64,000 nucleotides of DNA from Eledone cirrhosa (taxonomy: Eukaryota), in assembly GCA_964016885.1 (NCBI GenBank), contig OZ024743.1, forward strand, positions 274,598,001 to 274,662,000, in the 5' to 3' direction. The position numbers and the translations under genes were made by a program. The notes below the pieces were generated by a model. The model did no database searches, was not told the DNA's origin, and saw only the letters and a program-made list of their open reading frames with translations. Positions within the stretch are counted from its first letter, which is position 1, and each line of letters opens with the position of its first letter. Below, piece by piece: positions 4,791-6,934 of this stretch.

Positions 4791-6406
4791 ATATATATAT
4801 ATATATATATATATATATATATATATATATATATATATATGTATATATATATATATATATATATATATATATATATATATATATATATGTATATATATAA
4901 GAATATGTATATATATATGTTTATATATATATGTATATATATATGTATATATATATATGTATATATATATGTATATATATATGTATATATATATATATAT
5001 ATATATGTTTATATATATATATATATATATATACGTATATATATATATATATATATACGTATATATATATATATATATATATATATATATATATATATAT
5101 ATATATATATATATGTGTATATATATATATATATATATGTGTATATATATATATATATATGTGTGTATATATATATATATATATATATGTGTGTGTATAT
5201 ATATATATATATATATATATATATATATGTGTATATATATATATATATATATATATATATATGTGTATATATATATATATATATATATATATATATATAT
5301 ATATATGTGTATATATATATATATATATATATGTATGTGTATATATATATATATATATATATATATATATATATATATATATGTATGTGTATATATATAT
5401 ATATATATATATGTCTATATTAAATATATATATACGTGTGTGCATGTGTGTGCATGTGGGTGTTTCTGTTTACGCACACACACACACATATATATGTATA
5501 TATATATATATATATATATATATATATATATATATATATATATATATACAAGCCTTTAATATATTTCCCAAACCTTTTTTTCTTCAAAACATGGAAACAC
5601 GGAGGCGTTCAATGTTCTGAAACTTCCGGTAATATATATATATATATATATATATATATATATATATATATATATATATATATATATATATATATATATA
5701 TATATATCTATATATATATATCTATATATATATATCTATATCTATATATATATATATATATATATATATATATATATATATATATATATATATATATATA
5801 TATATATATATATATATATATATATATGTCTATATATATATATATATATATATATATATATATATAGAGATATATATATATATATATATATATATATATA
5901 TATATATATATAGATATATATATAGATATATATATATATATATATAGATATATATATAGATATATATATATATAGATATATATATAGATATATAGATATA
6001 TATAGATATATATATATATATAGATATATATATATATATATATATATATATAGATATCAAATGATGATGATTTCAAATGAATGAAACAGTTCTAGTCCTG
6101 TAGAATCTCATCTATATTAAAACTGTTATAATCTGCTATGTATTGAGTACCTTACTTACTGTGGTTACCTCCGATTCAACCCGGAATAACGTATATCTAT
6201 ATATATATATATATATATATATATATATATATATATATATATATATATATATATATATATATATATATCTATATATATCTATATATATCTATATATATAT
6301 ATATATATATATATATATATATATATATATATATATATATCTATATATATATCTATATAGGGGCCAATAGGGGGAGGTCGTTATATATATATCTATATAT
6401 ATATCT

Positions 6407-6455
6407 GATTCCTGATGATTTCAAATGAATGAAACAGTTCTAGTCCTGTAGAATC
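6407..6455 (+). ncRNA. Type I hammerhead ribozyme motif
   Basis: GATTC CTGATGA tTTCaaatGAAt GAAA CAG ttctagtc CTG TA GAATC: stem I GATTC/GAATC, stem III ACAG/CTGT, GUA cleavage triplet. Confidence 0.8.
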
Positions 6456-6523
6456 TCATCTATATATATATATATATATAGATATATATATATATATATA
6501 GATAGATATATATATATATATCT

Positions 6524-6572
6524 GATTCCTGATGATTTCAAATGAATGAAACAGTTCTAGTCCTGTAGAATC
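6524..6572 (+). ncRNA. Type I hammerhead ribozyme motif (identical tandem copy)
   Basis: Identical to 6407-6455; a third, core-damaged copy with tail lies at 6064-6190. Confidence 0.8.
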
Positions 6573-6934
6573 TCATCTATATATATATATATATATATAT
6601 ATATATATATATATATATATATATATATATATATATATATATATATATATATATATATATATATATATATATATATATATATATAGAGAGAGAGAGAGAG
6701 AGAGAGAGAGAGAGAGAGAGAGATTGAAATATAACATTTGTATAACAAATATGAAATAGCAGATACTCTTACAAAATTGTACACTAAACGTTAATACGAC
6801 AATAAATGTAGATCTGTTGTTATTTTTTTAAATCCAATATTAAATGAAATGGTTTCGATTAAAACGATATACATTGCAAATGTTTAACTTCCAGTAAAAA
6901 AACCATATATATTTATAGTGTTGGTGTTGGACAG

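What the first reader, a model, noticed from the sequence alone, without database searches (positions are those of the whole stretch)
6057..6580. Tandem ribozyme-only repeats separated by (TA)n: minimal retrozyme-like array
Seen: a ~55-nt unit that is almost exactly one hammerhead occurs identically at 6407 and 6524, with predicted GUA cleavage sites 117 nt apart, plus a damaged copy with tail at 6064. It has a true stem III and a U-U pair at 10.1-11.1. The diverged homolog at 44826-44877 keeps the core, the U-U pair and stems I and III with different stem I sequence. Known: non-LTR retrozymes are tandem hammerhead repeats that give circular monomers. Inference: read-through could release a 117-nt, largely AU-repeat monomer, antisense to and downstream of the GPCR.
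Basis: partly seen in the sequence, partly recalled or inferred. Interest (0 to 1): 0.7.

Follow-up and report, generated by a model that had tools for sequence, protein, structure and literature searches.

The report
Duplicated Penelope retroelement hammerhead end
The two identical hammerhead motifs are real, but they are the clipped end of a very common Penelope-type jumping gene that lands in TA repeats, and this one likely got duplicated on the spot, so it is not a new mobile element, although the pair is predicted to fold into a working two-part self-cutting RNA if it is ever transcribed.

Summary
Observation confirmed: identical type I hammerhead motifs at 6404-6461 and 6521-6578, GUA sites 117 nt apart, a damaged tailed copy at 6064, a diverged homolog near 44870. 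Interpretation only partly supported. The unit is the pseudo-LTR hammerhead of a Hydra-clade Penelope-like retroelement: in L029 it lies 136 nt before the RT/GIY-YIG ORF, and its 29-nt core has 16,924 exact genomic copies. Both ends of the unit are ordinary for this element (its short 3' end occurs 1,525 times; hammerhead-only solos in TA tracts recur). The 117-nt monomer exists once: its 5' junction occurs 3 times in 3.0 Gb, twice here. Two other hammerhead-only direct tandems turned up (periods 104 and 64), each with its own junction, so these are sporadic local duplications, not a spreading retrozyme. The pair is predicted to fold as a double hammerhead through a palindromic loop 3. Cleavage, transcription and read support are untested. 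The scan noted Penelope pLTR hammerheads before on other DNA of this genome; a look-up by this sequence found nothing.

The parts
6064..6191 (+). Copy A: 5'-truncated pseudo-LTR end of the Penelope-like element; hammerhead lacks C3 and stem I 5' strand; runs to the long ('tail') 3' end, 89 nt after the cleavage site
6360..6381 (-). 22-nt fragment of the same element's 3' UTR, just after the ORF stop, inserted in the opposite orientation; its TATA junction matches the subfamily that shares the stem II variant of copies A-C
   Evidence: this junction occurs once in the genome
6404..6461 (+). Copy B: hammerhead-only pseudo-LTR fragment; stem I 5 bp (6407-6411 with 6451-6455), core from 6412, GUA 6448-6450; ends at the element's short 3' end
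6462..6520 (.). (TA)n spacer with three G interruptions; predicted to fold on itself as AU hairpins
6521..6578 (+). Copy C: identical to B including the rare 5' junction; GUA 6565-6567
6451..6567 (+). Predicted 117-nt product between the two cleavage sites (not shown to exist)
2480..6723 (.). TA-rich array that holds the copies and other inverted-repeat insertions; the element's preferred target type
44745..44943 (.). Head-to-head insertion of a sister subfamily: tailed arm on minus (44745-44877), short arm on plus (44901-44943); 201 exact copies of its core pattern
44002..44173 (.). Older, decayed head-to-head insertion of a related family
8961..10061 (-). Rhodopsin-family GPCR ORF; neighbour only, its read-through would be antisense to the hammerheads

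Best explanation
The unit is the hammerhead-bearing end (pseudo-LTR) of a high-copy Hydra-clade Penelope-like retroelement that inserts in (TA)n, and the 117-nt tandem likely arose when one short, hammerhead-only insertion was duplicated locally between its TA flanks. Shown: identity with the pseudo-LTR next to the RT/GIY-YIG ORF, the copy numbers, the alternative 3' ends, the single occurrence of the monomer. Inferred: the element's enzyme nicks (TA)n and reverse-transcribes from start sites 12, 21 or 89 nt after the cleavage site; copy A (long end), the inverted 22-mer and copy B (short end) are short cDNAs from one complex insertion of one subfamily; slippage or unequal exchange in the TA tract then copied B to give C. 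Predicted side effect: a plus-strand transcript through B and C would fold as a double hammerhead through the palindromic loop 3 and could cleave weakly, as an accident of the duplication and not as part of a replication cycle.
For: L029: hammerhead directly 5' of the ORF, ATG 136 nt after the cleavage site, and again about 3 kb behind the stop of a second ORF copy; same 3' layout in L014. ORF motifs RWR, DKT, YRDD, CxCx5C linker, CxxC and CxH, as listed for Hydra; weak GIY-YIG hit, E 0.0086, below the curated cut-off. Copy numbers: 16,924 (29-nt core), 307 (this stem II variant), 1,525 (short end into TA). In 39 of 42 head-to-head pairs one arm has the long end and the other a short or middle end. 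5 of 30 loci picked for a TA-type 5' junction are hammerhead-only solos (one regex hit, L076, dropped on inspection). B and C share a 5' junction found 3 times in the genome; the third, L062, has another stem II and a long tail. A, B and C share a variant that makes up about 2% of copies (307 of 16,924, patterns of different length), and the 22-mer junction fits that subfamily (4 of 4 loci with TATA, against TTTA in L029). Other hammerhead-only direct tandems have their own periods and junctions: 104 nt x2 (L141) and 64 nt x4 (L097), where copies 2 and 4 share a core mutation, which points to duplication of DNA after mutation.
Against: The DNA-level duplication step is not shown: a second round of reverse transcription ending at the same base cannot be excluded, and CT-GATTCC junctions do recur at head-to-head joints (7 of 14 matches, viewed). 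No read evidence that the duplication is real. Pfam gives no RT hit for the ORFs, so the clade rests on motifs and on reading the published alignment by eye; no tree was built. The single-event origin of A, the 22-mer and B is an inference from a shared variant.
Confidence: 0.78

Rival explanations
1. B and C were both written by the element's reverse transcriptase in repeated short rounds during one insertion (start at the short end, copy about 60 nt, drop off, re-prime on TA), with no later DNA duplication.
For: The locus is a patchwork of short pieces of one subfamily in both orientations; L141 has a 7-nt stem I fragment in front of its two copies; Penelope RT starts at internal sites of its RNA (PMC11167929).
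Against: 5' truncation points vary widely among copies, so two rounds ending at the same rare junction are unlikely; L097 shows DNA-level duplication in this family.
Confidence: 0.1
2. The 117-nt unit is a minimal retrozyme: it is transcribed, self-cleaves, circularises, and was inserted from a circular template as a more-than-unit copy.
For: Direct tandem of complete cores, which resembles the working definition of an active retrozyme in 10.64898/2026.07.22.740005; predicted double-hammerhead fold; identical junctions are what a rolling-circle copy would give.
Against: Monomer found at one locus only; the repeat covers 87 nt beyond one unit start and the spacer's G interruptions are not repeated on either side; native stem I loses its sixth pair and outer extension in B and C; 8 of 9 Xenopus dimers tested in that preprint did not cleave; no transcript evidence.
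Confidence: 0.05
3. The second copy is an assembly or polishing artefact inside a long TA array.
Against: B and C have different TA flanks (C versus G interruptions); diverged tandems of the same kind exist elsewhere (L141, L097), so the arrangement can be real.
Confidence: 0.07

Closest known systems
Hydra clade of Penelope-like elements (Craig et al. 2021, PMC8557442), e.g. Hydra-1_Obim
   Same: C-terminal GIY-YIG, RW(K/R), DKT, CxCx5C, CxxC and CxH motifs; hammerhead in the pseudo-LTR; (TA)n targets; inverted 5'-truncated arm and a tail at one end
   Different: A different family: its loop-3 motif is not in the paper's supplement (0 hits; one hit of an 11-nt piece in another sequence) and the listed Hydra-1_oBim hammerhead has another sequence; about 3 kb of TA/TG-rich 3' UTR; the window holds only end fragments
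Hammerheads of Penelope pseudo-LTRs (Cervera and de la Pena 2014, PMC4209133)
   Same: Type I motif in the pseudo-LTR, mostly scattered as truncated single copies, some close together on opposite strands; palindromic helix III region suggesting dimeric action
   Different: Short weak helix II (3-4 bp) with U-U at 10.1-11.1 instead of 6-8 bp with G10.1-C11.1 and an extra 5' base; longer helix III (A-U plus 3 bp, 8-nt loop with central CUAG)
Non-LTR retrozymes of animals (PMC7229834; bioRxiv 10.64898/2026.07.22.740005)
   Same: Direct tandem of type I hammerheads, non-coding, derived from a pseudo-LTR; U-U at the base of helix II as in axolotl HHR_Amex2; predicted dimeric cleavage; the preprint proposes that a pseudo-LTR can seed a local tandem
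   Different: One locus, two copies, spacer made of target microsatellite; no dispersed copies of the monomer; no evidence of transcription or circles; reported tandem units are 150-450 bp (2020 paper) or 51-972 bp (2026 preprint)
Poseidon element of Anolis (PAc; PMC11167929)
   Same: Alternative 3' ends of genomic copies (tail) explained by internal RT start sites downstream of the hammerhead; AT-rich targets
   Different: Different clade; there priming is not homologous to the target, whereas here the short end and the 22-mer junction both merge into TATA(T), which hints at microhomology (inference)

Membership tests
Type I hammerhead ribozyme | Core CUGANGA ... GAAA ... UH with three helices | tested here: met
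   Core intact in B and C; helix I 5 bp, II 3-4 bp, III A-U plus 3 bp. Compensated helix I between subfamilies (AGAUUC/GAAUCU versus GGCU(U)UC/GAAGCC) and A-U/U-A/G-C swaps at helix II position 4, where 102 of 183 copies pair
Type I hammerhead ribozyme | Match to a curated Rfam hammerhead model | tested here: not met
   0 matches at gathering score in the window; no hammerhead family among 44 weak matches in 6300-6700
Type I hammerhead ribozyme | Self-cleavage at GUA | not testable with these tools
   Folding only: active fold lies 3.3 to 7.7 kcal/mol above the ensemble for B alone, 2.5 to 2.8 for the site at 6450 in the two-copy fold with up to 60 nt of flank, 6.8 with 150 nt
Penelope-like element pseudo-LTR | Repeat flanks an RT plus GIY-YIG ORF, with the hammerhead inside it | tested here: met
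   L029, L014; GIY-YIG E 0.0086, below cut-off; YRDD motif
Penelope-like element pseudo-LTR | 5' truncation, inverted 5' arm, tail at one end only | tested here: met
   24 head-to-head, 1 tail-to-tail and 1 direct pair within 1 kb among the first 100 of 16,924 listed copies; long plus short or middle end in 39 of 42 pairs
Hydra clade | RWK, DKT, CxCx5C linker, CxxC and CxH, no CCHH, no GxKF | tested here: met
   RWR, DKT, CNCx5C, CDLC, CMH present and GxKF absent; no CxxC between the GIY-like and YIG motifs on reading the translation; definition from PMC8557442 section 11
Hydra clade | (TA)n insertion preference | tested here: met
   Ends run into (TA)n in the loci viewed
Hydra clade | Placement in an RT phylogeny | not tested
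   No tree built; likeness to Hydra rows read by eye from the supplement
Non-LTR retrozyme | [quoted passage not shown] | tested here: met
   B and C
Non-LTR retrozyme | The monomer is a dispersed family that spreads as a unit | tested here: not met
   5' junction 3 times in the genome, 2 here, the third unrelated
Non-LTR retrozyme | Transcribed, self-processed, found as linear and circular monomers | not testable with these tools
   Runs found are contigs only, none holds half of the words (0 of 24), RNA rows are metatranscriptomes under 5 words; no reads laid

The most novel reading that the evidence does not exclude
Hammerhead-only tandems in TA tracts (periods 117, 104 and 64 nt here) are retrozymes being born: duplication of a clipped Penelope end switches on a ribozyme that needs a partner, and read-through transcripts release some of the smallest animal self-cleaved RNA circles, mostly AU repeat, from which new retrozyme families can start.
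Probability: 0.1. Interest if true: 0.65.

Novelty: new member of a known kind. Interest (0 to 1): 0.27.

Why it matters
As it stands it is a by-product of a known kind of element, worth little alone. Its use is as a small natural test case: the same hammerhead occurs as a single copy, as head-to-head pairs and as rare direct tandems, so one can test whether Penelope hammerheads with a palindromic loop 3 cleave only as dimers, and whether a local duplication of a pseudo-LTR end is enough to seed a retrozyme, as the 2026 preprint proposes without showing a case.

Tried and rejected
Rfam scans found no hammerhead model; the weak miRNA matches are TA-repeat noise. PDB sequence search with the ORF gave nothing relevant. 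Pfam gave no RT hit on five ORF stretches and two homologs. The homolog search returned 451 mostly unnamed proteins and no clade label. My first clade guess, Neptune, was dropped after the motif test. A link to the GPCR was rejected: opposite strand, 2.4 kb away, and the family averages several copies per megabase. The run search gave only contig data with low word shares, which I do not use as evidence; no reads were laid, so the artefact question is open. Direct tandems with long spacers could not be counted genome-wide: the gap search covered spacers up to 14 nt, and only the first 100 rows (54 distinct sites, 1 direct pair) were visible. Three direct pairs 564-841 nt apart (L002, L020, L080) and one at 318 nt (L095) were inspected and rejected as separate insertions. 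Conservation of loop 3 gives no covariation support for the dimer: paired and unpaired positions are equally conserved, and most loci were picked by patterns that contain them. Literature searches showed no paper on this family or on TA-spaced hammerhead-only tandems; the library lacks most subscription papers and Repbase was not searched.

Full report
Observation. The window shows three same-strand copies in a TA array. B (6404-6461) and C (6521-6578) are identical over 58 nt; their cores start at 6412 and 6529 and their GUA triplets end at 6450 and 6567, 117 nt apart. Copy A (6064-6191) lacks C3 and the 5' strand of stem I but carries a tail. The homolog at 44870 on the minus strand is 83% identical over 59 nt and is one arm of a head-to-head pair; a decayed pair lies at 44002-44173. 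The GPCR ORF (7tm_1, E 5.2e-33) is on the minus strand and ends 2,394 nt away. Rfam has no hammerhead match. The description is accurate.

What the unit belongs to. Copy A matches many places in the 3.0-Gb genome at 99% (59 matches from 40 of 766 candidates scored). Exact counts: 16,924 for the 29-nt core, 307 for the 44-nt variant of this window, 201 for the sister subfamily of the 44.8-kb homolog; backwards controls gave 0. Of 19 stretches fetched around hits, L029 shows the hammerhead and tail running straight into an ORF whose ATG is 136 nt after the cleavage site, and a second ORF copy followed by about 3 kb of TA/TG-rich sequence, a pseudo-LTR of about 0.5 kb and the hammerhead; L014 has the same 3' layout. 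The ORF carries YRDD, RWR, DKT, CxCx5C, CxxC and CxH and lacks GxKF, the set given for the Hydra clade (PMC8557442, section 11). Pfam gives only a GIY-YIG hit below cut-off and no RT hit, so the clade call rests on motifs and on reading the published alignment by eye. It is not Hydra-1_Obim, whose listed hammerhead differs. The host is probably an octopus (my inference from the repeats and from earlier scan notes).

Why a hammerhead-only unit is ordinary. Copies end at three places: 12, 21 or 89 nt after the cleavage site. Among 142 copies in the loci then held, 70 had the long end, 38 the short, 28 the middle and 6 other; the loci were partly picked for their ends, so these are not genome proportions. 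In 39 of 42 head-to-head pairs one arm had the long end and the other a short or middle end. The short end running into TA occurs 1,525 times. This fits the tail signature that PMC11167929 explains by internal RT start sites. A short end plus 5' truncation at the base of stem I gives a hammerhead-only solo: 5 of 30 loci picked for a TA-type 5' junction are such solos (L076 dropped on inspection). B is one of these. In B and C the native sixth pair of stem I and its outer extension are lost.

The locus. The 22 nt at 6360-6381 are the reverse complement of the element's 3' UTR just behind the ORF stop. The flanking TATA belongs to the subfamily with this window's stem II variant (4 of 4 loci, picked by likeness to copy A) and reads TTTA in L029. 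A, B and C all carry that variant, about 2% of copies. I infer one complex insertion that left A, the 22-mer and B.

The tandem. The 5' junction shared by B and C occurs 3 times in the genome; the third (L062) is unrelated. The 117-nt monomer therefore exists once. The exact repeat covers 87 nt and the spacer's three G interruptions are repeated on neither side. Among the first 100 listed core copies, pairs within 1 kb were 24 head-to-head, 1 tail-to-tail and 1 direct, the last being two separate insertions. Targeted searches found two more hammerhead-only direct tandems. L141 has two copies 104 nt apart with a TA spacer, a shared non-native start and 4 differences; it was 1 pair among 54 distinct sites listed. 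L097 has four copies at 64 nt, from 2 of 14 matches, the other 12 being head-to-head joints; its copies 2 and 4 share a mutation at G12, which indicates DNA duplication after mutation. Scaling 1 in 54 to roughly 880 sites suggests on the order of ten such TA-spaced pairs in the genome; this is a rough inference from one event. Each has its own period and junction, as expected for sporadic local duplication and not for a propagating monomer.

Would it cleave? A single unit does not adopt the hammerhead fold as its minimum; the active fold is 3.3 to 7.7 kcal/mol above the ensemble. Helix III and loop 3 form a 14-nt near-palindrome that does not fold alone (0.0) but pairs with a second copy (-9.4 kcal/mol). 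In a 196-nt transcript across B and C the minimum-energy structure has the double-hammerhead topology, with stem II mispaired; both sites active cost 4.7 kcal/mol against 12.0 for two monomers. The advantage shrinks with more TA flank (14.6 against 16.7 at 150 nt). This matches the dimer logic described for metazoan and Penelope hammerheads (PMC4209133; PMC7229834, which also reports a U-U at the base of helix II). Against activity: Penelope minimal hammerheads cleaved poorly in vitro, the Anolis one only with protein, and 8 of 9 Xenopus dimers not at all. Stem I shows compensated changes between subfamilies; loop 3 shows no covariation. No transcript evidence was obtained: the 24 runs found are contigs with low word shares and no reads were laid, so an assembly artefact is not excluded.

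Verdict. It is built like the smallest possible retrozyme dimer and meets the 'two consecutive hammerheads' criterion of 10.64898/2026.07.22.740005 (their energy filter not reproduced), but fails the test of being a dispersed monomer family. It is best filed as pseudo-LTR debris of a Hydra-clade family not found in my searches, with a local duplication of the kind that preprint proposes as a first step to retrozymes. Interest 0.27.

Papers seen: PMC4209133 parts 1-2 of 4; PMC11167929 parts 1-2 of 4; PMC8557442 outline, passages, section 11 and search hits in its supplement; PMC7229834 passages and sections 15 and 17; the bioRxiv preprint parts 1-3 of 5, its supplements not seen (they list retrozyme units down to 51 bp and may bear on how unusual 117 nt is). 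Hammerhead numbering is from my own knowledge.

Noticed in passing
L097:1450-1720 (G000:C1 near 324.0196 Mb, minus strand): Four direct copies of the hammerhead at a 64-nt period with no spacer, one 5'-truncated; copies 2 and 4 share a G12 mutation. An even smaller ribozyme-only tandem than the finding.
   Followed up: partly
L141:580-760 (G000:C1 near 189.8634 Mb, minus strand): Second TA-spaced hammerhead-only direct pair, period 104 nt, with a 7-nt stem I fragment upstream.
   Followed up: partly
L096, L099-L109: 12 of 14 matches are head-to-head joints in which the inverted arm ends on the complement of the stem I 5' strand and continues with sequence from behind the stem I 3' strand, suggesting a template switch across stem I.
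   Followed up: partly
window 3870-4330 and 4470-4870: Two more inverted-repeat insertions in the same TA array; the second has hammerhead-like cores at 4548 (minus) and 4595 (plus).
   Followed up: no
window 22629+, 26079+, 25756-, 23440+, 21158-, 53897+, 48074-, 14549-, 44546-, 9346-: Other hammerhead-like cores from a loose motif scan, several present twice or three times identically, probably further Penelope families.
   Followed up: no
window 40264-41256: Perfect 48-bp tandem, 20.7 copies, 100% identical.
   Followed up: no
L029:6710-9300, L014: The element carries about 2.5 kb of TA/TG microsatellite-like sequence inside its own 3' UTR, so it may spread its own target type.
   Followed up: no
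L015:4883-7180, L022:5596-6669, L024:6415-8024, L030:6761-7633: ORF pieces of other Hydra-like families near copies of this one; L015 is 39% identical over 433 aa.
   Followed up: no
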